Source: Armatimonadota bacterium
Lineage (GTDB): Bacteria > Armatimonadota > DTGP01 > JAKQQT01
NCBI GenBank assembly: GCA_036504855.1
Contig: DASXUL010000039.1
Span: forward strand, 15,582 to 79,581
Direction of reading: 5' to 3'
DNA: 64,000 bases
Part shown: one piece after another, positions 4,901-45,155 of the stretch
Layout of the letters: each line of letters begins with the position of its first letter
How positions within the stretch are numbered: the stretch's first letter is position 1
Notes under the pieces: generated by a model
Database searches by the model: none
What the model was told of the DNA's origin: nothing
What the model saw: the letters and a program-made list of their open reading frames with translations, nothing else
Position numbers and translations under genes: made by a program

Positions 4901-5508
4901 CCTTCCCAGGCGCCGCGGCCGGCGCCTTCAACAGCGCGCCCGCGCTGTCTGGCGATAAGGTTGTGGTCGGCTCCGCCGCCCGCCGCGTCTACGGGTTCGC
5001 CTCCCTCACCGCCGTCCAGCCGTGGGTTACCAGCGTTACCCCGGCCAACGGCTCCGCCAGCGCCACGGCTCCGGCCAGCATCACCCTGACGTTCAGCGGC
5101 GACATCAGCACCTCTCCGATCGATTCCTCCACAGTGAAGTTGCTGGACAGCGCCGGCGCCGCGGTGGACGCGTCTCCGGCCCTTGGGGCTGACCTCAAGA
5201 GCATCGTCATCACGCCGGCGAGCCCGCTCTCGCTGAACAAGACCTATACCGTGGTGGTGGACGCCACCGTGTCGCAACCGTTCTCCTCTTCGTTCGCCAC
5301 GGCTCTGCCCGCGGTGGTGAAGGGCGACGTTAATGGCGACGGCCAGTTCAACGCCCAGGACGTGAAGGACGCCCTGAAGATGGCCAGCGGCCTTCTGCCC
5401 GCCACCGACAAGGCCATCACTGCTCTCAACAAGACCAAGCCGTACAGCATCACGGTTGGAGACGCCGTCTTCATGGACCGCGTGCTGGGCGGAAAGGCCT
5501 CCTTCTAG
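1966..5508 (+). CDS. Large secreted cell-surface protein (about 1180 aa) with a signal peptide, PQQ/BamB-like beta-propeller repeats, an Ig-like (Big/SbsA-type) domain and a C-terminal dockerin-like repeat
   Basis: I chose the ATG at 1966 inside the longer ORF because it is preceded by gaaagaggaa (an RBS) and starts the signal peptide MILPFRIPRWAAPAALGLALAAPSWA. Repeated GxxYxxxxxGxVYxxNxxTGxxL motifs indicate a beta-propeller. The C-terminus has DVNGDGQFNAQDVKDALKMASGLL. The 552-aa antisense ORF 2323..3981 was rejected. Confidence 0.8.
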   Translation: MILPFRIPRWAAPAALGLALAAPSWAAISVTDVSISPGTGGDIFLKYRLNEAASSVSINLSGGSSVTGATAKGLNTVTLTHAVAGQTATITATAPAEAGGAAGAVLVVPVTTPDNRATPSSTNLVGVDVNKRINSAGNVYGAALGHIYLPTGFNQAGQKYCWVYASDGTMLFNKNLGDVATSGSWPYGMAVAQGDPNDHVVIHNRSLAKNCVFNADLSLTFAAPYNYTNGVPGMCITPNPSDATLKFNIWQAGPKDKGVRRTKADLATAAGFDYNTTTFAIEAGNDGENVHDIAVDLTNAVMFKAQVTDGGVGALSTGGVNKWTSADAGDNWTEDTTWLTAFLNNVTADLAAAGSALTTADLVGGGVGLAPGFNAANMSNSSAWVAVSSSLAVPFFNRIYRVNAATAAIEQTIDVQQIPTPTGGVAIAGKSVRFVEADAVGNLCIGLNAAAAMTGQSSRYFAVLGPNQTGANSASVGGIFISAPPQISVSVDKNVVANTGAITVNFTAQVTDTSGIVADNAQVTADLSAIKGPPSATLVRGAVSADGFSAPYTVSYLVPKDVDLSNSGSFDLPFTLATTSTPSTVARVTVAVYSAYTPAWSLTTDGAVNSSPVTNGVYAYFGDDAGKVYEVNTATGALVSAFGAGGAVTLPEPVKGKLAYDAGKLYVATSGHVYVLNGGTGSILASPAVAGVSSLAVSPLIPNAVFAAAGNTIVKLNATTGAQLAATPDLGAAVNRVSLIPSSANDATQAPAVALVVTGTEGDSTGKNGKIVIASAGNLGAVFSDANSVPTLTPFTDANGPVRSQATFGNDGTINFFAIGGASGLWAVNADAGTLLEWVANSGGGANNGGNPYTPGSPVDADPVVPIVGDGSFGREDTRFAFATAGSASQGGQLNVLTSSVGERASYGGYPVPLTPIGSGFAAGAGLFAVNTADGPRVIYLGSDAVDKRFFAVETEPDDISYSATADKKHIFDPKDTLAFPGAAAGAFNSAPALSGDKVVVGSAARRVYGFASLTAVQPWVTSVTPANGSASATAPASITLTFSGDISTSPIDSSTVKLLDSAGAAVDASPALGADLKSIVITPASPLSLNKTYTVVVDATVSQPFSSSFATALPAVVKGDVNGDGQFNAQDVKDALKMASGLLPATDKAITALNKTKPYSITVGDAVFMDRVLGGKASF

Positions 5509-5513
5509 ACGAG

Positions 5514-5658
5514 TAGCTGTCAGCTATCAGCTATCAGCGATCAGCTATCAGCGATCAGCCGAACACCCCGCCCATGAGGAAACCATCCTCACGGGCGGGG
5601 TGTTCGGCTGAATGCTGAATGCTGAATGCTGAATGCTGAATGCTGATAGCTGACAGCT
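5514..5658. repeat. Intergenic palindromic element A. It has perfect 17-bp terminal inverted repeats, inner 7-bp tandem units (CAGCTAT/CAGCGAT on the left, GCTGAAT x4 on the right) and a central 15-bp-stem hairpin
   Basis: agctgtcagctatcagc (5514-5530) is the exact reverse complement of gctgatagctgacagct (5642-5658). The central stem ccgaacaccccgccc / gggcggggtgttcgg spans 5559-5607. The element lies between convergent genes, and the MFS stop codon (cta at 5657-5659) sits inside the right terminal repeat. Confidence 0.7.
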
Positions 5659-6868
5659 ATTCCCTCAGCGTTCCCAGGTTGCGGAGTTCGGGCCAGAGGC
5701 AGGCCACGGCGGCGACCACCAGGATGCTGCCCACGCCGCCCGCCACCACGGAGGCGACAGGGCCGAAGAGCTGGGCCACGGCGCCGCTCTCGAAGCCGCC
5801 GAGCTGGTTGCTGGCGCCGACGAAGAGGCTGTTTACCGCGCTCACCCGGCCGCGCAGATGGTCCGGCGTCCGTAACTGCACCAGTGACTGCCGCACGATG
5901 ACGCTGATGTTGTCCACGGCGCCCAGCAGGAAGAGCATCGACATCGAGAGCCAGAACGAACGCGAGAGGCCGAAAACCACGGTGACGACGCCAAACCCGG
6001 CCACGGCGAGGATCAGGGTGCGTCCTGCCCGGCGCATCGGAGGCCGGTGGGCCACCGAAACCGCCATCAGGGCCGCGCCCACGCTGGGGGCGGCCCGGAG
6101 CCAGCCCAACCCGCTGGGACCAACGTGCAGGATGTCTTTCGCGTAGATCGGCAGCAGGGTTGCGGCGCCCCCCAGCAGGACCGCGAACATATCCAGCGTT
6201 ATCGAGGCCAGAATGATGCGCGTCTGCAGAACGAAGCGCAAACCGGCCAGCAGCGTGCGCCAGTTCACTTCCTCGCGCTTTCGAGCGGCGGCCACGGTTC
6301 GAAGCGCCCACACGAAACCGAAGTGCCACAGCGCGAAGGCGGCGGCCACCCAGTAAACCGGCGCGGCCGCCTTCGCCACCCCGATGAGCAGCCCGCCGAG
6401 CGCCGGGCCCGCCACGCTGCCGATCTGGAAGATGCTGCTGTTCCAGGTGACGGCGTTGCTGAAATCGCGCTCCGGCACGAGTTGGGGCAGCAAGGAGGAC
6501 ACAGCCGGGTTACGGATGGCCCTCGACGTGGCGCCCACGAAGAGAAGGGCATAGTAGGCGGCCACAGGGCCGTGGGCGTGGGAGATCGCCGCCAGCGCCA
6601 GGGAGCAGAGCACGGCTATGGCCTGGGTGAACAGCACGATGCGACGGCGGTCGAACCGGTCCGCGGCATGTCCGGCCGGGAAGGTGAGAAGGAGGACCGG
6701 GAGGATTTCAACGAGTCCCACCAGGCCGAGGGCCATGGCGGAATGCGTTCGCTCGTAGAGCTCCCAACCCACGGCGACATCCTGCGCTTGCATCCCGATG
6801 ATGGAGAGGATATTGCCCGTGGCATAGCGCCGGAAATTCGCGTGGCGCAACGCTGAGTACGGGTCCAT
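5657..6868 (-). CDS. MFS transporter (enterobactin-exporter EntS-like family)
   Basis: A 403-aa polytopic membrane protein. The N-terminus LRHANFRRYATGNILSIIGMQAQDVAVGWELYERT and the overall pattern of 12 transmembrane segments are typical of the MFS superfamily. Confidence 0.85.
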   Translation of the reverse strand: MDPYSALRHANFRRYATGNILSIIGMQAQDVAVGWELYERTHSAMALGLVGLVEILPVLLLTFPAGHAADRFDRRRIVLFTQAIAVLCSLALAAISHAHGPVAAYYALLFVGATSRAIRNPAVSSLLPQLVPERDFSNAVTWNSSIFQIGSVAGPALGGLLIGVAKAAAPVYWVAAAFALWHFGFVWALRTVAAARKREEVNWRTLLAGLRFVLQTRIILASITLDMFAVLLGGAATLLPIYAKDILHVGPSGLGWLRAAPSVGAALMAVSVAHRPPMRRAGRTLILAVAGFGVVTVVFGLSRSFWLSMSMLFLLGAVDNISVIVRQSLVQLRTPDHLRGRVSAVNSLFVGASNQLGGFESGAVAQLFGPVASVVAGGVGSILVVAAVACLWPELRNLGTLRE

Positions 6869-6883
6869 AGGTGCAGTATGTCG

Positions 6884-7036
6884 TTATGAGTCATCAGTCG
6901 TCAGTCGTCAGTCGTCAGTCGTCAGTCCGGATGCCGTCTGCCGCCGAGAACGCCTCAATCACCGTTCTGGGCATTCGGGCTGATGACTGACGACTGACGA
7001 CTCATGACCGACGACTCATGACCGACGACTGATGGC
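6884..7036. repeat. Intergenic palindromic element B. It consists of a tandem GTCAGTC/GTCATCA 7-mer array, a unique core and an inverted CGACTGA/TGACGAC array
   Basis: gtcatcagtcgtcagtcgtcagtcgtcagtcgtcagtccgg ... gggctgatgactgacgactgacgactcatgaccgacgactcatgaccgacgactgatgg. The right arm extends over the last six codons and the TGA stop of the DUF309 gene (7016-7036). Confidence 0.7.
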
Positions 7037-8076: not shown

Positions 8077-8142
8077 CGAGGGGCCCTCGGGCTCTCGTTT
8101 TCCAAACAGGGAAGCGAGAGCCCGAGGGCCCCTCGTTTCTCC
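8077..8142 (+). terminator. Rho-independent-type terminator hairpin with a perfect 21-bp stem plus a T-rich tail, located between convergent genes
   Basis: cgaggggccctcgggctctcg (8077-8097) pairs with cgagagcccgagggcccctcg (8115-8135) and is followed by tttctcc. Confidence 0.6.
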
Positions 8143-10037: not shown

Positions 10038-10121
10038 TTTCGGTCTTTCCTCCTTTATGTGATCGGAGCCGGCAGCCGCCGCTTGCCGCCTGCCGCGTGG
10101 GGCGGCGCTGAGACGCGGGAA

Positions 10122-10250
10122 ACCACAGAGACATAAGGGCGCAAAGGGCGGATGAAAGGGATCGATTGGGGGGAATGCCGGGCCCAACACGATCCACCTC
10201 CCCATCTATACCCCTTTCATCCGCCCTTTGCGCCCTTGTTTCTCTGTGGT
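10122..10250. repeat. Long inverted repeat with about 39-bp arms (36/39 identical) separated by a 50-nt loop. It lies upstream of the S53 peptidase gene
   Basis: accacagagacataagggcgcaaagggcggatgaaaggg (10122-10160) matches the reverse complement of cccctttcatccgccctttgcgcccttgtttctctgtggt (10211-10250). The right arm overlaps the last codons of ORF 10217..10669. Confidence 0.6.
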
Positions 10251-10669
10251 TGCTCCGCCAGGCCTTCCAGCCACCGGCGGAAGGCGTAACGCGCCGCCGG
10301 GCGAGCCAGGGCGGCGAGGCCGGGGATGGGAAATCGGGTCCAAACCTGCAGGCGCGCTTCGCACCCGCCGGATGGCGTTGGCGTTAGCAGCAGACGGCCG
10401 CGCTGCGCTACGCCTAACGAGGCGCTTACCGAAAGCCAGACGACCGCGGAGGGGCTCCACGCCTTGACGAAAGTCATGCGCAGCCCTAGAGGCAGGAACA
10501 CGCGATAGCGCACCCATCCGTCACCGCGCGCCAGCACATCCACGCGGCGGACGAATGGGATGAGTTCCGGCTCCAACTCTACGCGCGAGACCAGAGCCGC
10601 CGCCAAGGCGGGCGGCGCCGGATTGCGGGCGCTCACGCACAGGATGAGGCATTTCGATCGGTCAGCCAT
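10217..10669 (-). CDS. Hypothetical protein (150 aa), possibly SRPBCC-like
   Basis: It is the only sizeable ORF between the peptidase gene and the divergent downstream gene, with no recognisable catalytic motif. Its 3' end is embedded in the arm of the long inverted repeat. Confidence 0.35.
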   Translation of the reverse strand: MADRSKCLILCVSARNPAPPALAAALVSRVELEPELIPFVRRVDVLARGDGWVRYRVFLPLGLRMTFVKAWSPSAVVWLSVSASLGVAQRGRLLLTPTPSGGCEARLQVWTRFPIPGLAALARPAARYAFRRWLEGLAEQPQRNKGAKGG

Positions 10670-10786: not shown

Positions 10787-11044
10787 ATGTTACGCATGAA
10801 CGCGGGCACGCGCCCATGCGGGGAGGGTTATCCGATGAAGCCCGCATTGTACGGCTGGAAGGACATGCTGCATGACTACACGCAGCTCCTTCTGAACGAC
10901 CGCTGGTATTGGTGCCGCCACTGCCGTCGTCCCGTTGAACACGTGCAGATCCCGCCTCCGGGCAGCCCCCCGGACGCGACCTCCCTAACGTGCCTCGATT
11001 GCGGCTACGCCGACCCGGAATTCCTGCACCTCCCTCGGATGTAA
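10787..11044 (+). CDS. Small zinc-ribbon protein (CxxC...CxxC), hypothetical
   Basis: An 85-aa ORF containing CRHCRRP ... CLDCGY. A start at the internal MKPALYGW is also possible. Confidence 0.4.
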   Translation: MLRMNAGTRPCGEGYPMKPALYGWKDMLHDYTQLLLNDRWYWCRHCRRPVEHVQIPPPGSPPDATSLTCLDCGYADPEFLHLPRM

Positions 11045-11163
11045 GCTGTCAGCCGTCAGCTGTCAGCCGTCAGCCCAGAGGGTCCGCCTGTGCAGACGCC
11101 GCGCTCTCTTGGGTCAGCCTTCCGGCTGATGACTGATGACTGAAGGCTGACGACTGACTACTG
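11045..11163. repeat. Intergenic palindromic element C, a compound of 7-mer arrays (GCTGTCA/GCCGTCA) plus a D/E-like unit
   Basis: gctgtcagccgtcagctgtcagccgtcagcc ... ggtcagccttccggctgatgactgatgactgaaggctgacgactgactac, located immediately after the stop codon of the preceding gene. Confidence 0.65.
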
Positions 11164-11237: not shown

Positions 11238-11335
11238 GCGGGCAGGGCAAGCCCAGCCCCTACCAGGTCGGGGTCTCCATCCACCCATCGGTGGACGGCC
11301 GGGCCTACCGGGTCGGGGCTGGGCTTGCCCTGCCC
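11238..11335 (-). terminator. Large GC-rich hairpin (perfect 21-bp stem, 54-nt loop with an inner palindrome) downstream of the pilin operon
   Basis: gggcagggcaagcccagcccc (11240-11260) pairs with ggggctgggcttgccctgccc (11315-11335), and the loop contains tccacccatcggtgga. It lies 59 nt beyond the 3' end of the PilX-like gene. Confidence 0.5.
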
Positions 11336-19913: not shown

Positions 19914-19923
19914 CCACACTCAC

Positions 19924-19988
19924 CACAAAGGCACAAAGGCGCGAAGACCGGATCTTGTTTCGGTCTTCGCGCCTTTGCGCCTTTGTGG
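19924..19988. terminator. Bidirectional terminator hairpin between convergent genes
   Basis: cacaaaggcgcgaagaccg / gatcttgtt / cggtcttcgcgcctttgtg form a perfect stem of at least 17 bp. Confidence 0.65.
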
Positions 19989-20001
19989 TAAGTTCGCCGA
20001 G

Positions 20002-25683: not shown

Positions 25684-25830
25684 ATCACGCTCCTTTGGCG
25701 GGCCAAGGTAAGGGCGGGGCCATTCCGCTCAACACGCCGACATGGAGCGCGGCGGCTTGCCCCCGCTTTCGCTCGGTCCACCCCCGCCCAAAGCGGCGGC
25801 AAGCCGCCGCATTCCATATCGGTTGCCGCG

Positions 25831-27880: not shown

Positions 27881-29008
27881 TCATAATCCTAGGATTTCGC
27901 GCCCCAACAGCGCCCAGCGGGTGATATCCGGGTCCGCGTTGAAGCCGGGTTCACCGGCGAGAACGGCGCGCTGGTGGGCGGCCAGAACGCATGCGCCTTC
28001 CTCGAAGATCCCGCGGATCGGATCGGGCAGCGGCTCGCGGCCGATGCAGGCTGGGCGCAGCGGGATCATCTCCCGCGTGTTGTGCTCGGTTCCGCCAGTT
28101 ACGATGAAGCCCGCATCTCGCAAGGCGGGAACGTACTCCTCCAGCACGAGGCGGCGGTTGCGCACTGGGATGAACTCCACGGCCCCGATATCCCAACGAT
28201 GGAGCCGCTCAGTCAACCCTTCAACCGGCGCCTCGAACGGGCAGATGGGGCTGGCGCCGTCCGCCAGCACCGGGTAGCACGGGATGCCCCTCATCGCCAG
28301 GACCAGCGCGCGGGCCTCCTCGAAGGAGACGAACCGTTCCTCCACGAAGGCCGGCCGCCCGGCCTTCATCAGATGCGTGCGGATGTCGTTTTGCACCGCC
28401 GCCGCGTCGTCTGGCGCCTTCGGCTCTGCTCCAAGAATCGCGTGCAGCGCTCCGGCCCGGGCGCCAGGCTCGGTAGAGGCGAACAGCGCTTCCTGAAACG
28501 CCTGCGCCACGTGGCGCTCCTGAAGGGTAACCGTATCGCGCGGGCAGCCGTGCCGGGTCACGACGCCGTCAACAATTGCCCCGTCGGTCAGGCCGGTGGG
28601 GAATCCCGCCGTCGTGAACACGGACTCCATGCGCGACACCATCGCGGAGATGCGGCGCGCGTCGCCCTCGCGGATGCCATTCAGCACGCGCGCCGGCTCC
28701 GGCTCGAAAGCGGCGGCGGGGGCGATTCCCTTCCCGCAGACGTAGACCTTGCCGGGGTTGCCGGGGTCGTTCAGCTTCACGCCATCGGCCGCCAGCCGCT
28801 CATCCCGCGCCACGATCTCCATCCCGAACAGCGGGAAGATGCCGGCGCGTTCGGCCCGTTCTGCAAATTCCGCGTAAACGGAGTAATCGTAGTAGTTGCT
28901 GGCCCCGAGCGCGCGGATGCCCTGTTCGGCCGCCAGGCGTACCGCCTGTTCCACGGAATCGAACGCCGAAAAGTTCGGCGGAAGGTGAATGTGGCTGTTT
29001 GAAGTCAT
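27881..29008 (-). CDS. PHP-domain (polymerase/histidinol-phosphatase-like) metal-dependent phosphoesterase
   Basis: The N-terminus SHIHLPPNFSAFDS matches the HxH...D PHP motif. The start codon lies inside the first unit of repeat D and has no Shine-Dalgarno sequence. Confidence 0.6.
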   Translation of the reverse strand: MTSNSHIHLPPNFSAFDSVEQAVRLAAEQGIRALGASNYYDYSVYAEFAERAERAGIFPLFGMEIVARDERLAADGVKLNDPGNPGKVYVCGKGIAPAAAFEPEPARVLNGIREGDARRISAMVSRMESVFTTAGFPTGLTDGAIVDGVVTRHGCPRDTVTLQERHVAQAFQEALFASTEPGARAGALHAILGAEPKAPDDAAAVQNDIRTHLMKAGRPAFVEERFVSFEEARALVLAMRGIPCYPVLADGASPICPFEAPVEGLTERLHRWDIGAVEFIPVRNRRLVLEEYVPALRDAGFIVTGGTEHNTREMIPLRPACIGREPLPDPIRGIFEEGACVLAAHQRAVLAGEPGFNADPDITRWALLGREILGL

Positions 29009-29073
29009 CAGTAATCAGTCGTCAGTCGTCAGTTGTCAGTTCGGACTCAGAACTGATGACTGACGACTGACAA
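29004..29073. repeat. Intra-operon palindromic element D of the 7-mer family (GTCATCA/GTCGTCA ... TGACGAC/TGATGAC)
   Basis: gtcatcagtaatcagtcgtcagtcgtcagttgtcagttcggactcagaactgatgactgacgactgacaac fills the entire 65-bp gap between the E2 stop and the PHP start. Confidence 0.65.
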
Positions 29074-30276
29074 CTACTTCTCCAGCATTTCCTTGAGTCG
29101 GGCCATGAAGCGGGCGGCGAGGAGGCCGTCGATGAGGCGGTGGTCGGCGGAGAGGGTGAGCGTCATCCGATGGCCGGCGCGGATGGCGCCGTCCTTCACG
29201 ACGATGTCCTCGCGAACGGCGCCCACGGCCAGGATGGCGGCTTCCGGCGGGTTGATGATCGCCGAGAACTCCTCAACGCCGAACATGCCGAGGTTGGTGA
29301 TGGTGAACGTGGCCTCGCCGGCGCCCTCCAGCCTGCCGGCGCGGGCGGCCTCCACAATGCGGCGCGTTTCGGCGGCGATGCCCTTCAGGTTTCGGCTGTC
29401 CGCGCCCCTCAGAACCGGCACGGTGAGCCCCTCATCCGTTCCCACGGCGATGCCGATATTCGCCTCGCGGAACGTGACGACGTCATCGCCGTCCACGCGG
29501 CCCCGGAACGCGGGGAACTCGGTAAGGAGGCGGGCACAGGCGTATGTGATGACGTCGTTCAGGCTGCACGGATACACCGCCTTCTCGGCGCGGTAGAACG
29601 CCATCAGCGGCCCCGCGTCGACGGTGAGCTTCACGTAGAAGTGCGGGATGGTCTGCTTGGACGCAACGAGGCCGCGGGCGATGGCCTTCCGCATACGGGT
29701 CATGGGAACGCGCTCGGCCCCCGGCTCCGGCGGTCGCGGGGATCGCGGCTCCGGCTCCGGCTCCGCCGCGGCCTCGTGGACCGCTGCTTCAACATCGGCC
29801 AGCAAGATCCGGCCGCGCGGGCCCGAGCCATGGGCGATGCTCTCCAGGGAAACGCCGCACTGGGCCGCGGCCTTCCGGGCCAGCGGCGAGGCGGCCACGC
29901 GCCCGGACCGCGCGGGTTCCACGGCCGGAGTCCGTTCCCGCGCCGGCGCCTCTCCGGCTACGTTCGGCGCAACGGCCTGCGGCGCTCCGGCGAGGAACGC
30001 GTCCGCCTCGGCGTCCGTCTCGGCCAGAACGCCAACCAGCGATTTCACCGGCAGCGTGACGCCGTCCTTCGCCACGATGCGGGCGAGGCGTCCGGAATCG
30101 GCCGCTTCCACCTCCAGCACGGCCTTGTCCGTTTCCACCTCGAAGAGGATGTCGCCCTTGCGGACCTGGTCCCCCTCGCGGGCCAGCCATCGGACGATGG
30201 TCCCCTCCTCCATGGATTGCCCCGGCTGGGGCATCAGTATCGCCACGGCGCCGCGCGTCTCGGACGGTTGGTTCAT
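29074..30276 (-). CDS. Dihydrolipoamide acyltransferase (E2 component of a 2-oxo acid dehydrogenase complex)
   Basis: A lipoyl domain (EVETDKAVLEVEA), an Ala/Pro-rich linker, an E3-binding domain, and a catalytic domain with DHRLIDG. The start was chosen at MNQPS (30276). The upstream ATG at 30333 would place a palindromic operator-like site in the coding sequence. Confidence 0.8.
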   Translation of the reverse strand: MNQPSETRGAVAILMPQPGQSMEEGTIVRWLAREGDQVRKGDILFEVETDKAVLEVEAADSGRLARIVAKDGVTLPVKSLVGVLAETDAEADAFLAGAPQAVAPNVAGEAPARERTPAVEPARSGRVAASPLARKAAAQCGVSLESIAHGSGPRGRILLADVEAAVHEAAAEPEPEPRSPRPPEPGAERVPMTRMRKAIARGLVASKQTIPHFYVKLTVDAGPLMAFYRAEKAVYPCSLNDVITYACARLLTEFPAFRGRVDGDDVVTFREANIGIAVGTDEGLTVPVLRGADSRNLKGIAAETRRIVEAARAGRLEGAGEATFTITNLGMFGVEEFSAIINPPEAAILAVGAVREDIVVKDGAIRAGHRMTLTLSADHRLIDGLLAARFMARLKEMLEK

Positions 30277-30308
30277 AACGGAAGCCTTTACAAGTTGGTC
30301 GAAGTTTT

Positions 30309-30341
30309 GCACATTATAGACAAACTCTTGCAAGAATGTGC
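30309..30341. promoter_or_regulatory. Candidate operator: a perfect 10-bp palindrome TCTTGCAAGA nested in a 7-bp inverted repeat GCACATT...AATGTGC, in the divergent E2/DeoR control region
   Basis: gcacattatagacaaactcttgcaagaatgtgc. It lies about 30 to 65 nt upstream of the E2 start and about 80 nt upstream of the DeoR-family regulator start. Confidence 0.35.
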
Positions 30342-30347
30342 AGAGAA

Positions 30348-30418
30348 GTCATCAGTTGTCAGTCATCAGTTCTCAGTCCGGACTGACGACTGATGACTGA
30401 TGACTGATGACTGACGAC
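30348..30418. repeat. Palindromic element E of the 7-mer family, centred on cagtccggactg
   Basis: gtcatcagttgtcagtcatcagttctcagtcc | ggactgacgactgatgactgatgactgatgactgacgac. It ends 4 nt before the DeoR ATG. Confidence 0.7.
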
Positions 30419-30422
30419 TCCC

Positions 30423-33724: not shown

Positions 33725-34173
33725 AGAGGGATCGGGGCCGGCGGAGCGAATCGGGGTCCGGATTCCGGATTCCGGATTCGCGACCATGAGCGGGTGGAGG
33801 ATGTTGGTTGGGAGGAAAGGCCGGGCCCCGAGGGGCCGGCTCGGCGGACCAACGGCGCCTTCGCGCTGTGATGCCGCCGTCCACTCACGTCACCCCGAGC
33901 GAAGCGAGAGGTCTCGGCCTGACGCGTCTTTCCTGGCAACGTTTCAAGCACCCGAGCCGGCGTTTGCCTGGGTGCTTGCTCCGCAGCGCCAAACTGCAGG
34001 CCAGGCCGAGACCTCTCGCTTCGCTCGAGGTGACGTGGAGAGACGCGAGGGCGCGAAGGGCCCTTGGCCTTCCGAGCCGGCCCCTCGGGGCCAGGCTCTA
34101 CCCGCCAACTACTAGCATCCTCGCGCATCCGGTCGCGAATCCGGACTCCGGAATCCGGATCCCGATCCCCTTC
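33725..34173. repeat. Three-layer nested palindromic composite (about 449 bp) that fills the gap between convergent genes
   Basis: Outer inverted repeat: gggatcggg...tccggattccggattccggattcgcgacc (33728-33787) against ggtcgcgaatccggactccggaatccggatcccgatcccc (34126-34170). Middle inverted repeat: gccccgaggggccggctcgg (33828-33847) against ccgagccggcccctcggggc (34072-34091). Inner 153-bp element: 33886-34038. Confidence 0.7.
33886..34038. mobile_element. MITE-like 153-bp palindromic element (copy 1) with 36-bp terminal inverted repeats and a central hairpin
   Basis: Terminal repeats cacgtcaccccgagcgaagcgagaggtctcggcctg / caggccgagacctctcgcttcgctcgaggtgacgtgg. The central stem is agcacccgagcc...tgggtgct. 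It is homologous to 44973..45125. Confidence 0.6.
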
Positions 34174-44934: not shown

Positions 44935-44972
44935 GAACCACCCTCCACCACCAAGAACCTAACCTCTCGCCC

Positions 44973-45125
44973 CACGTCACGTCGAGCGCAGCGAGAGGTC
45001 TCGGCCTGACGGTTCTACGAGAGATGCGTCACAAGCACCCGGGCAAAGGTCTGCATGGGTGCTCCTTACCACGCATCAAGCAAACGGCCAGGCCGAGACC
45101 TCTCGCTGCGCTCGAGGTGACGTGG
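44973..45125. mobile_element. MITE-like 153-bp palindromic element (copy 2), 39 bp upstream of the GIY-YIG gene start
   Basis: Terminal repeats cacgtcacgtcgagcgcagcgagaggtctcggcctg / caggccgagacctctcgctgcgctcgaggtgacgtgg. The central stem is agcacccgggc...atgggtgct. It is the same length as copy 1 and has the same terminal repeats. Confidence 0.65.
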
Positions 45126-45155
45126 GAGGCCACGCTTCCACCATTTCAGCAGCCT

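What the first reader, a model, noticed from the sequence alone, without database searches (positions are those of the whole stretch)
5514..5658. A family of intergenic palindromes built from 7-bp tandem units with a TCAG/CTGA core (five or more copies in 64 kb)
Elements at 5514-5658, 6884-7036, 11045-11163, 29004-29073 and 30348-30418 share one design. On the left is a tandem array of heptamers (GTCAGTC, GTCATCA, CAGCTAT, CAGCGAT, GTCAGCC). On the right is the inverted array (GACTGAC, TGATGAC, GCTGAAT). A short unique or hairpin core often lies between them (in D and E the centre is the palindrome CAGTCCGGACTG). Copy A has perfect 17-bp terminal repeats and a 15-bp-stem internal hairpin. Unit sequences vary between copies, but the 7-bp periodicity and mirror symmetry are constant. 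This is unlike classical REP/BIME, CRISPR (there are no spacers) or simple microsatellites, and I do not recognise it as a named repeat family. Three of the five copies are about 145 to 153 bp long.
Basis: seen in the sequence. Interest (0 to 1): 0.75.

Follow-up and report, generated by a model that had tools for sequence, protein, structure and literature searches.

The report
Intergenic hairpins of inverted heptamer arrays
The reported palindromes are real. They are hairpin-forming pairs of inverted 7-bp repeat arrays with a TCAG core that fill the gaps between genes. The same strongly one-sided design occurs in many bacterial phyla and in phages, but its function is untested; RNA hairpins that punctuate operons is my best guess.

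Summary
The five elements (A-E) sit at the stated coordinates. TCAGNNN x3 occurs 27 times against 0.01 expected, always TCAG arm first and CTGA arm second. A sixth element (33745-34171) uses TCCGGAT units. All fold into very stable hairpins (-44 to -116 kcal/mol) and fill the spacer from a stop codon to the next start or stop.

The window is chromosome of an Armatimonadota MAG. Relatives with the same gene order lack D and E, so these are lineage-specific gains.

The design is widespread. The reverse polarity gave only 7 viral hits.

Pooled elements share these features:
- Four cores per arm is the commonest number.
- The core is a pentamer (TCAG plus a fifth base) that is the same for nearly all elements from one locus.
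- The last two positions of each unit are free and largely unpaired between arms.
- Centres are mostly unique.

The kind is partly known: heptanucleotide LSSR/STRR arrays, inverted GGGAATC arrays in Xanthomonas, and TAACTGA arrays before start codons. I found no description of this TCAG class, its polarity or its breadth.

Most likely they act as transcribed intercistronic or 3'-end hairpins. That is inferred, not shown.

The parts
5514..5659 (.). Element A. Left array (AGCTRTC units) 5515-5559, central perfect hairpin about 5560-5606, right array (GCTGAAT units, then GCTGATAGCTGACAGCT) 5607-5658. It lies between convergent genes. The + gene stops at 5506-5508. The stop of the MFS gene on the - strand (CTA, 5657-5659) is the outermost unit of the palindrome.
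   Evidence: I2: 66-nt arms, 82%; -114/-116 kcal/mol, z -17/-19
6884..7036 (.). Element B. Left array (GTCAGTC x5) 6889-6927, 54-nt centre with its own partial palindrome, right array 6980-7034. It lies between two - strand genes. The DUF309 gene runs about 20 nt into the right arm and stops at a TGA supplied by a unit (7016-7018). The MFS start (6866-6868) lies 15 nt beyond the left arm.
   Evidence: I3: 53 nt, 85%; -85 kcal/mol, z -7; independent gene calls
11044..11163 (.). Element C. Left array (GTCAGCY x4) 11044-11075, 52-nt centre containing two small hairpins, right array (CTGATGA/CTGACGA) 11124-11163. It starts at the last base of the TAA stop of a 69-aa ORF. The arms are only partly complementary. 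A second copy of the centre, with different heptamers, exists in assembly L001.
   Evidence: (-63 kcal/mol, z -3.2)
29004..29076 (.). Element D. It fills the whole spacer between the E2 acyltransferase gene and the next gene on the - strand. The E2 stop TAG (29074-29076) overlaps the outermost AG of the 5' arm. The ATG of the downstream gene (29006-29008) lies inside the last CTGATGA unit of the 3' arm. That arm has two more units than the 5' arm, and these stay unpaired in the minimum-energy fold.
   Evidence: I19; -43.6 kcal/mol, z -6.4; spacer is 16 or 5 bp in relatives
30347..30419 (.). Element E. A near-perfect palindrome centred on TCCGGA in the divergent spacer between the E2 and DeoR genes. 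It ends 3 nt before the DeoR ATG (30423).
   Evidence: I14: 33 nt, 88%, no gap; -48.5/-52.2 kcal/mol
33745..34171 (.). Element F, a variant of the same design. TCCGGAT x3.3 (33757-33779) and GAATCCG x3.3 (34137-34159) flank a long palindrome. The 36-nt core of that palindrome (33886-33921 / 34002-34037) recurs at 44971-45126 without heptamers. F lies between the convergent E1 and GNAT genes.
   Evidence: (I1, I9, I23, I5)

Best explanation
What they are (shown). Each element is a palindrome made of two inverted arrays of heptanucleotide units, (AGYNN-TC)n...(GA-NNRCT)n, around a short centre. They belong to the bacterial heptanucleotide long simple-sequence repeats. In this lineage they were gained inside short intergenic spacers. 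[quoted passage not shown]

How they most likely work (inferred). They are transcribed with their neighbours, and the RNA folds into a long hairpin interrupted by small internal loops. The hairpin punctuates the transcript in the way REP/BIME hairpins do. It blocks 3'-to-5' decay of the upstream cistron and attenuates read-through at convergent gene ends. Because it brings the upstream stop codon and the downstream start codon together at its base, a gene that used to be translationally coupled can still be translated.

The polarity matters on either strand. The arm after a stop codon is open in all frames. The arm before a start codon carries TGA in all three frames (7 mod 3 = 1). Any ribosome inside the element therefore terminates right at the next start.

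The arrays grow and shrink by slippage. They are held near four cores per arm, and only the 5-nt core of each unit is kept.
For: Shown:
- Very stable hairpins on both strands in the window. In 150 random elements from other genomes the median dG is -42 kcal/mol, the median z is -7.6, and 83% of 5'-arm bases pair with the 3' arm.
- None of 133 elements lies inside a gene.
- Among 307 elements with both flanking genes assigned, 206 lie between co-directional genes, 65 between convergent genes and 36 between divergent genes. Convergent versus divergent gives p=0.005.
- About half of upstream stop codons lie 0-15 nt before the first TCAG. In a further 15% (co-directional) to 38% (convergent) of flanks, the ORF runs through the open 5' arm and stops at a TGA in the 3' arm. 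Element B shows this in the window.
- Of genes that start within 20 nt after a 3' arm, 83% start with ATG. The background for first-in-ORF starts is 52%.
- The 3' arm is slightly longer than the 5' arm in the direction of the genes (+0.34 unit, p=7.5e-4). D shows this, with its ATG in an unpaired extra unit.
- In relatives the E2-to-next-gene spacer is 16 or 5 bp. D was therefore inserted at a tightly coupled operon junction and tolerated there.
- A tailed phage carries these elements between terminase, portal, head and tape-measure genes, which are normally co-transcribed. Strong termination is therefore unlikely.
- No U-tract terminators were found at the elements.

Published precedent:
- TAACTGA arrays end about 1 nt before start codons that lack a Shine-Dalgarno sequence, and a translational role was proposed for them (PMC4679880).
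- Xanthomonas heptamer arrays are transcribed, prefer four units and avoid divergent spacers (PMC4692102).
Against: - There are no expression data for any of these elements, so every functional step is inferred.
- Placement next to stop and start codons follows automatically from insertion into a short spacer. It is not independent evidence of function.
- Positions 6-7 of the units pair between arms barely above chance (41% and 35% against 28-29%). G.U pairs are no more enriched than A.C mismatches. Selection for RNA pairing is therefore not visible beyond the 5-nt core.
- An RNA-hairpin role does not by itself explain three findings. These are the forward-to-reverse polarity bias of at least 17 to 1, the pentamer core shared within a locus and the mode of four cores per arm.
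- Other heptamer classes in the same loci show no consistent stop-codon polarity.
- The elements are absent from relatives, so they are dispensable at these loci.
Confidence: 0.4

Rival explanations
1. Mutational or selfish by-product. Heptamer microsatellites expand by replication slippage, because 7-nt loops escape mismatch repair. Template switching within quasi-palindromes copies expansions to the other arm. The elements have no host function. They persist only where they do no harm, which means intergenic DNA, since 7 is not a multiple of 3 and the arms carry stop codons. Arm length is capped by the instability of long palindromes.
For: - Period-7 arrays number 799 in the fetched loci, against 31-78 for periods 5, 6 and 8. 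This fits the published excess of heptamer repeats (cited in PMC4679880).
- Arms in A and C have become uniform independently of each other.
- Paralogous copies differ in copy number and in unit sequence.
- The elements are absent from orthologous loci of relatives.
- Paired arrays rarely exceed 5 cores, whereas unpaired arrays reach 18-126 units.
- Positions 6-7 show only a residue of complementarity, with transitions enriched, as expected for neutral decay.
Against: - Neutral slippage and decay should treat positions 5, 6 and 7 alike. Instead position 5 is identical between adjacent units in 89% of cases and complementary between arms in 86%. Positions 6-7 score about 50% and 35-41%.
- The length distribution peaks at 4 cores instead of falling steadily.
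- A neutral process gives no polarity, yet forward outnumbers reverse by at least 120 to 7.
- The fifth base is shared by 94% of element pairs from one locus.
Confidence: 0.25
2. DNA-level recognition arrays. Each arm is a set of about four heptad binding sites for a genome-encoded, sequence-specific protein. Candidates are a ribbon-helix-helix heptad binder like the omega repressor of pSM19035, or a transposase or RAYT-like enzyme. In the second case the elements would be foldback-like or REPIN-like non-autonomous mobile DNA. The fixed tip-to-centre orientation of the sites would give the polarity.
For: - A conserved 5-nt core plus 2 free positions per unit, the same core on both arms, and a core specific to each locus.
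- A preferred number of four sites per arm.
- Strict polarity, as for terminal inverted repeats.
- The same element, centre included, occurs at non-homologous loci in several deltaproteobacterial MAGs.
- Duplicated copies occur within contigs, for example C/C' and L132.
- Presence/absence between relatives looks like insertion.
- From my own knowledge: the omega repressor binds contiguous 7-bp heptads in direct or inverted arrays, and Drosophila foldback elements have inverted terminal arrays of short tandem repeats around variable centres.
Against: - No transposase, RAYT or obvious heptad-binding gene was found among the 46 ORFs of the window.
- Of 371 elements only 23 small clusters share a centre, most of them the same locus seen twice. 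Typical MITE or REP families are not like this.
- No consistent target-site duplication was seen.
- One protein family would have to exist from candidate phyla radiation (CPR) bacteria to Acidobacteriota to Firmicutes, and in phages.
- The window itself mixes TCAGC and TCAGT cores.
Confidence: 0.2
3. Bidirectional intrinsic transcription terminators of a type without a U-tract.
For: - Strong hairpins directly after stop codons.
- Enrichment between convergent genes.
- Some centres in other genomes are canonical GC hairpins followed by a T run, for example L009.
Against: - No T run follows the arms.
- D sits inside a conserved operon junction.
- A phage carries the elements between its co-transcribed structural genes.
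- 36 elements lie between divergent genes.
Confidence: 0.1
4. Assembly or sequencing artefact.
For: Short-read Logan contigs break inside arrays A, B and E.
Against: - Three assemblies agree base for base across A-F.
- D and E are shorter than a read.
- The design occurs in complete genomes, isolates and contigs of up to several Mb.
- Its placement relative to codons is non-random.
Confidence: 0.01

Closest known systems
GGGAATC / GGGNATC heptamer repeats of Xanthomonas and Nostoc (Rehm et al. 2015, PMC4692102)
   Same: - Intergenic tandem heptamers, with 70-75 cases per Xanthomonas genome of two arrays in convergent (inverted) orientation close together.
[quoted passage not shown]
- Enriched between co-directional ORFs, depleted between divergent ORFs, and found within 50 bp of stop or start codons.
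- Transcribed.
- Element F of the window uses GGAATCC, one base away from this unit.
   Different: - The unit is G-rich and was interpreted as forming a G-quadruplex. TCAG units cannot form G4, yet they show the same four-unit preference.
- That family is described in two genera. The TCAG class is found across many phyla and in phages.
TAACTGA direct repeats of marine Beggiatoaceae, cyanobacteria and Bacteroidetes (MacGregor 2015, PMC4679880)
   Same: - The unit falls within the consensus of the 3' arm here (YNRCTGA; TCAGTTA is a common 5'-arm unit).
- The arrays sit in 'forward' orientation directly upstream of start codons, often without a Shine-Dalgarno sequence.
- They give stops in all three frames.
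- They are intergenic and typically have 2-6 copies.
   Different: - Those arrays are direct only. Just one inverted set was found in 170.
- A single fixed unit is used, rather than a core plus free positions.
- There is no hairpin partner.
- Horizontal transfer among three groups was proposed for them. Here the design is found in many more phyla.
Heptanucleotide LSSR (Mrazek 2007) and cyanobacterial STRR sequences (both as cited in PMC4679880 and PMC4692102)
   Same: - Tandem heptanucleotides are the most over-represented long simple-sequence repeats in many bacteria.
- They are mostly non-coding.
   Different: As summarised in the papers I could read, those descriptions cover arrays only. 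They do not mention obligate inverted pairing, polarity or placement from stop codon to start codon.
REP / BIME / REPIN elements of Enterobacteria and Pseudomonas
   Same: - Intergenic hairpin-forming palindromes, usually between co-directional or convergent genes, often in inverted doublets.
- From my own knowledge, their established roles are mRNA 3'-end stabilisation, attenuation, and effects on translation when close to a stop codon.
- This is the best functional analogue.
   Different: - REPs are 20-40-nt sequences conserved across hundreds of copies, with a 5' GTAG and an associated RAYT gene.
- Here there is no shared sequence beyond a repeated 5-mer.
- No RAYT gene is present in the window.
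MITEs and eukaryotic foldback elements
   Same: - Inverted ends around a non-coding centre.
- Presence/absence between relatives.
- Foldback elements have terminal inverted repeats made of short tandem repeats with variable copy number and variable centres (own knowledge).
   Different: - Most centres are unique.
- No target-site duplication was seen.
- No transposase has been linked to the elements.
- Foldback elements are not known in bacteria.

Membership tests
Heptanucleotide LSSR / STRR-type tandem repeats | Head-to-tail repeats of a 7-nt unit, three or more copies, longer than chance allows | tested here: met
   Tandem Repeats Finder finds period-7 arrays of 3.4-7.6 copies in every arm. 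There are 27 triple-core matches against 0.01 expected.
Heptanucleotide LSSR / STRR-type tandem repeats | Predominantly non-coding location | tested here: met
   All six window elements are intergenic. Of 133 elements in other genomes, none lies inside an ORF.
Xanthomonas-type inverted heptamer array pairs | Two arrays of the same unit on opposite strands, close together | tested here: met
Xanthomonas-type inverted heptamer array pairs | Unit GGGAATC / GGGNATC with G-quadruplex potential | tested here: not met
   Units in A-E are TCAGYNN, with no G tracts. Only F (GGAATCC) comes close.
TAACTGA repeat arrays | Direct repeats of exactly TAACTGA | tested here: not met
   The window units are GACTGAC, GACTGAT, GCTGAAT and GCTGATA. 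They share only the CTGA core and are paired with an inverted array.
TAACTGA repeat arrays | Forward orientation ending a few nt before a start codon | tested here: met
   In D the ATG lies inside the last unit. E ends 3 nt before its ATG and B 15 nt before. In the pooled data 128 starts lie within 20 nt of an arm, and 83% of them are ATG.
REP / BIME / REPIN | A 20-40-nt imperfect palindrome whose sequence is conserved among many copies in the genome | tested here: not met
   The centres and unit sequences of A-E differ. Only the 4-5-nt core is shared.
REP / BIME / REPIN | An associated RAYT (Y1 HUH) gene in the genome | not testable with these tools
   None was found among the 46 ORFs of the window.
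MITE | Terminal inverted repeats | tested here: met
MITE | Multiple copies with a homologous internal sequence | tested here: not met
   Of 371 elements only 23 small clusters share a centre, mostly the same locus seen twice. Exceptions are C/C', L132 and L031/L079/L083.
MITE | Target-site duplication | tested here: inconclusive
   The boundaries are fuzzy and no consistent direct repeat flanks the copies. By contrast, a genuine 101-bp insertion nearby with 10-bp terminal inverted repeats has a clean 10-bp duplication.
CRISPR array | Direct repeats of 21-48 bp separated by unique spacers of similar length | tested here: not met
   The units are contiguous 7-mers without spacers.
Intrinsic (Rho-independent) terminator | GC-rich stem-loop followed directly by a run of U | tested here: not met
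   The terminator scan flags none of the elements. The pooled flank composition shows no T run after the 3' arm.
Rfam RNA families | A match at gathering score | tested here: not met
   No matches in the whole window.

The most novel reading that the evidence does not exclude
The TCAG-core palindromes may be a single coherent cis-element class found across bacteria and phages. Each would have about 4+4 inverted heptads with a genome-specific pentamer core. The elements would be read or made by a conserved factor that has not yet been identified. One option is a sequence-specific nucleic-acid-binding protein. Another is an enzymatic process that adds TCAGYNN repeats to 3' ends at breaks. The second option would by itself produce the observed polarity, the mismatch between arms at the two free positions, and the unique centres.
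Probability: 0.2. Interest if true: 0.85.

Novelty: new variant of a known kind. Interest (0 to 1): 0.6.

Why it matters
Heptanucleotide repeats have been the most over-represented long simple repeats in bacteria since 2007, and no function or mechanism has been agreed for them. These results make the question testable, because they show that one class has all of the following:
- a fixed architecture of about four cores per arm;
- a polarity bias of at least 17 to 1;
- a 5-nt core that is conserved and shared within a genome, next to two free positions;
- placement from stop codon to start codon;
- a distribution across many bacterial phyla and tailed phages, including cultured isolates.

The shared preference for four units also weakens the G-quadruplex explanation given for the Xanthomonas arrays.

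There are practical consequences too. The elements break short-read assemblies, lengthen ORF calls by supplying stop codons, and mark start codons that lack a Shine-Dalgarno sequence.

Tried and rejected
- **Stop codons as a general polarity rule.** I tested whether an open 5' arm and a 3' arm with stops is a rule for all heptamer palindromes. It is not. Non-TCAG inverted pairs more often carry the stops in the left arm only (28) than in the right arm only (6) on loose criteria. On strict criteria no motif (AGY, AG, YAG, TCA) shows a significant polarity.
- **G.U wobble as a sign of RNA pairing.** G.U pairs are no more enriched than A.C mismatches at the variable positions.
- **Canonical terminators.** None was found at the elements.
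- **Rfam and tRNA searches.** Nothing was found.
- **Array length polymorphism.** The three assemblies are identical, but they probably derive from one sample, so this is uninformative.
- **Orthologous elements in relatives.** The nearest relatives share only 61-66% protein identity and lack the elements, so no compensatory-change analysis was possible.
- **Metagenome scan for copies of C's centre.** No hits, and even the known JGI contig was not found, so that collection evidently lacks this sample.
- **Direct-direct control scan in viral contigs.** It is swamped by single long arrays and is uninformative.
- **Mobilising or binding gene in the window.** None was found.
- **Shine-Dalgarno content before starts next to arrays.** It equals the background (35% against 34%), and the background start calls are poor, so the result is inconclusive.
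- **Resemblances considered and dropped for lack of any test or fit.** These were integron attC sites, DNA uptake sequences, Chi sites, primase CTG sites, box C/D K-turn motifs and IS4-family CTGA termini.
- **Literature.** Seven full-text searches found no description of TCAG-core palindromic arrays. Mrazek 2007 is not in the library and is cited second-hand.
Full report
**1.

The window is 66% G+C. At each of the five coordinates there is a left array of heptamers containing TCAG and a right array containing CTGA. Tandem Repeats Finder reports period-7 arrays for all ten arms.

- TCAGNNNTCAGNNNTCAG occurs 27 times against 0.01 expected. All plus-strand matches are in left arms and all minus-strand matches are in right arms.
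- A composite pattern (three TCAG units, 25-55 nt, three CTGA units) finds exactly the five elements. The mirror-image order finds none.
- Strict period-7 runs number 7, against 0-2 for every other period from 4 to 12.
- The arms are inverted repeats of 31-66 nt at 82-88% complementarity.
- Either strand folds into a long hairpin: A -114/-116, B -85, C -63, D -44 and E -48/-52 kcal/mol. Z-scores range from -3.2 to -19.

Small corrections are needed. CAGTCCGGACTG is the centre of E only, and C is 119 bp. A sixth element at 33745-34171 has TCCGGAT and GAATCCG arrays around a long palindrome.

A JGI assembly and Logan assemblies reproduce all six elements without a single gap, so this is not an artefact. 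The short-read Logan contigs do break inside A, B and E.

**2. Context in the window**

The source is an Armatimonadota MAG. Its 46 ORFs are ordinary chromosomal genes, with no transposase. There is no Rfam match and no tRNA gene.

- **A** lies between convergent genes. The TAG of the MFS gene is the outermost unit of the palindrome.
- **B** lies between two co-directional genes. The DUF309 gene reads about 20 nt into the arm and stops at a TGA supplied by a unit. An independent gene call gives the same end.
- **C** begins at the last base of a TAA stop codon.
- **D** fills the spacer between the E2 acyltransferase gene and the next gene. The E2 TAG overlaps the first AG of the 5' arm, and the next gene's ATG lies inside the last CTGATGA unit. 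The 3' arm has two extra units, which stay single-stranded in the minimum-energy fold.
- **E** lies in the divergent E2/DeoR spacer and ends 3 nt before the DeoR ATG.

None of the elements is followed by a T run.

**3. The elements were gained in this lineage**

The closest E2 homologues in 5.8 billion proteins are 66% and 61% identical. Their contigs keep the gene order E1-DeoR<>E2-next gene. The E2-to-next-gene spacer is 16 bp and 5 bp in the two relatives. No period-7 array occurs anywhere in 12-13 kb of either contig.

D was therefore inserted or grown at a tight operon junction and has been tolerated there.

A second assembly of the same population (L001) carries another copy of C's centre, about 90% identical. 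That copy has GTCATCA units on its left arm where C has GTCAGCY. Centres can thus be copied while arrays change.

**4. The design is widespread and polar**

The composite pattern was scanned against one genome per GTDB species.

- Taxa hit include Acidobacteriota (most numerous), Gemmatimonadota, Planctomycetota, Verrucomicrobiota and Chloroflexota. They also include Actinomycetota, deltaproteobacterial orders, Bacteroidota, Chlamydiota, Nitrospira and Elusimicrobia, and a candidate phyla radiation (CPR) genome, Alphaproteobacteria and Trueperaceae.
- The hits also include a complete Kiritimatiellota chromosome and the isolates Geothrix alkalitolerans and Paradesulfitobacterium ferrireducens.
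- G+C content of the loci ranges from 36% to 72%.

The reversed order gave 7 in a complete scan (binomial p of about 1e-27). Those seven are genuine reverse palindromes.

One tailed phage (terminase, portal, major head and tape-measure genes) carries an element in almost every spacer of its structural operon.

**5. Anatomy of the pooled, non-redundant elements (317-371 depending on the detection threshold)**

- **Location.** All elements are intergenic.
  - Flanking gene pairs are co-directional for 206 elements, convergent for 65 and divergent for 36. Convergent versus divergent gives p=0.005.
  - About half of upstream stop codons lie 0-15 nt before the first TCAG.
  - In 15% of co-directional flanks and 38% of convergent flanks, the ORF crosses the 5' arm, which is open in all frames. 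It then stops at a TGA in the 3' arm.
  - Starts within 20 nt after a 3' arm are ATG in 83% of cases. The background for first-in-ORF starts is 52%.
- **Unit.** The consensus is T-C-A-G-[C 0.47/T 0.32]-[T 0.4]-[A/G]. Arrays begin with AGYNN at the outer edge.
- **Fifth base.** It is identical between adjacent units in 89% of cases and complementary between arms in 86% (control 34%).
- **Positions 6 and 7.** They are identical between adjacent units in about 50% of cases. They are complementary between arms in only 41% and 35% (controls 28-29%). G.U pairs are no more enriched than A.C mismatches.
- **Core per genome.** Elements from one locus share the fifth base in 94% of pairs, against 34% expected. 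The window is unusual in mixing TCAGC and TCAGT cores.
- **Number of cores per arm.** The mode is four. In the subset free of ascertainment bias the counts are 3:116, 4:134 and 5:29. In bystander arrays they are 3:78, 4:130 and 5:19. Unpaired arrays reach 18-126 units.
- **Centres.** The median length is 25 nt and most centres are unique. Only 23 small clusters share a centre, mostly the same locus seen twice. One element does recur, centre included, at unrelated loci in several deltaproteobacterial MAGs.
- **Folding.** In spite of the mismatches, 150 random elements fold with a median of -42 kcal/mol and a median z of -7.6.
- **Other heptamer classes.** Period-7 arrays dominate these loci (799 against 31-78 for periods 5, 6 and 8). 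Other classes, such as TTAATTC, GTTCAAG, GGGGGAA and CCCGAAT, also occur as inverted pairs. They show no common polarity rule.

**6. What is already known**

- Heptanucleotides are the most abundant long simple-sequence repeats in many bacteria (Mrazek 2007, as summarised in PMC4679880).
- Rehm et al. (PMC4692102) described GGGAATC arrays in Xanthomonas.
  - There are 70-75 convergent inverted pairs per genome.
  - The arrays prefer four units, favour co-directional spacers and lie close to stop and start codons.
  - They are transcribed. The authors interpreted them as G-quadruplex formers.
- MacGregor (PMC4679880) described TAACTGA direct arrays. They end about 1 nt before start codons that lack a Shine-Dalgarno sequence, and they give stops in all three frames. 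She proposed a translational role through S1, Csp or CsrA-like proteins.
- I found nothing on TCAG-core palindromes, their polarity or their breadth in seven full-text searches.

**7. Interpretation**

Shown:
- The elements are paired inverted heptanucleotide arrays, a variant of a known repeat kind.
- They were gained inside short spacers.
- They can form hairpins.
- They are constrained in a position-specific way: a 5-nt core is kept and two positions are free.
- They are polar and have about four cores per arm.

Inferred (confidence 0.4): they act in the transcript as intercistronic or 3'-end hairpins, in the manner of REP/BIME.
- The hairpin would protect the upstream cistron and attenuate read-through at convergent gene ends.
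- It would place the upstream stop and the downstream start side by side at its base, so translational coupling survives the insertion.
- The 3' arm would terminate any ribosome, in any frame, next to the following start.

The phage operon and the E2 junction argue against strong termination. The convergent-over-divergent bias, the ATG starts next to arms and the longer 3' arm all fit the model.

Weak points:
- Placement next to codons follows from insertion into short spacers.
- RNA-specific pairing signals are absent.
- The model does not explain the polarity, the genome-specific core or the preference for four cores.

Those three features, together with the position-specific conservation, also argue against a purely neutral slippage origin (rival, 0.25). 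They keep open recognition by a sequence-specific protein, or a foldback- or REPIN-like mobile element (rival, 0.2). No candidate gene was seen for that.

A speculative reading covers the polarity, the mismatch between arms at the free positions and the unique centres at once. It is templated addition of TCAGYNN repeats to both 3' ends of a break, followed by rejoining. I have no evidence for such an enzyme.

**8. Verdict**

The feature is real and non-random. It is a new variant of a known but unexplained kind of bacterial repeat. The function is untested, and cultured carriers exist in which it could be tested.

Noticed in passing
window 33745-34171: A sixth palindrome of the same design, built from TCCGGAT/GGAATCC heptamers (one base from the Xanthomonas GGGAATC unit). 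The heptamers flank a palindrome of about 300 bp.
   Followed up: partly
window 33886-34037 and 44971-45126: A repeated long palindrome with the shared core CGAGCG(A/C)AGCGAGAGGTCTCGGCCTGAC (arms 97% and 93% complementary). The second copy has no heptamer arrays. It looks like a REP- or MITE-like family of this genome.
   Followed up: partly
L001 about 5514-5624, corresponding to the window after 11254: An insertion polymorphism between assemblies. The inserted element is 101 bp with 10-bp terminal inverted repeats (ATTCGTTCCA...TGGAACGAAT) and a 10-bp target duplication (GGGCAAGCCC). It is present in the JGI contig and absent from the window, and looks like a classic MITE.
   Followed up: partly
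window 11395 onward versus L001 5256-5362: The JGI contig and the window are 99.97% identical up to window 11255 and 96% identical up to 11395, and then diverge completely. At the breakpoint L001 carries a second copy of element C (C') followed by a different gene (aldolase/short-chain dehydrogenase). This is either a structural variant or an assembly join at the repeat.
   Followed up: partly
window 10121-10251, 11240-11335, 19918-19993, 25737-25822, 8077-8135: Further intergenic inverted repeats of 27-46 nt at 80-95% complementarity, without heptamer arrays. The one at 19918-19993 contains CACAAAGG 8-mer repeats. This genome is rich in intergenic palindromes.
   Followed up: no
L141, L160, L162 (IMGVR_UViG_3300045936_000120, 34 kb): A tailed phage with terminase, portal, major head and tape-measure genes and two DNA methyltransferases. 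It carries TCAGC-core heptamer palindromes in nearly every spacer between genes.
   Followed up: partly
L275 7626-8505, L320, L293, L308, L165 (viral contigs): Very long unpaired TCAG/CTGA heptamer arrays of 18-126 units. In addition, 111 unpaired arrays lie inside predicted ORFs, always in the stop-free (TCAG) sense. They may encode 7-residue peptide repeats or may be ORF over-calls.
   Followed up: no
L030, L031, L079, L083: The same element occurs at unrelated loci in four deltaproteobacterial MAGs. It has TCAGGTT/TCAGTGT arrays, the centre TTCTATGTTTCTTTTT and CTGACAC arrays. The left arm has 4-7 units.
   Followed up: partly
window 30290-30310 (- strand), with L249 and L250: GTTTGTCTATAATG upstream of the E2 gene is conserved in a relative whose E2 is 66% identical. 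It is probably the -10 region of the E2 promoter. Element E lies just upstream of it.
   Followed up: no
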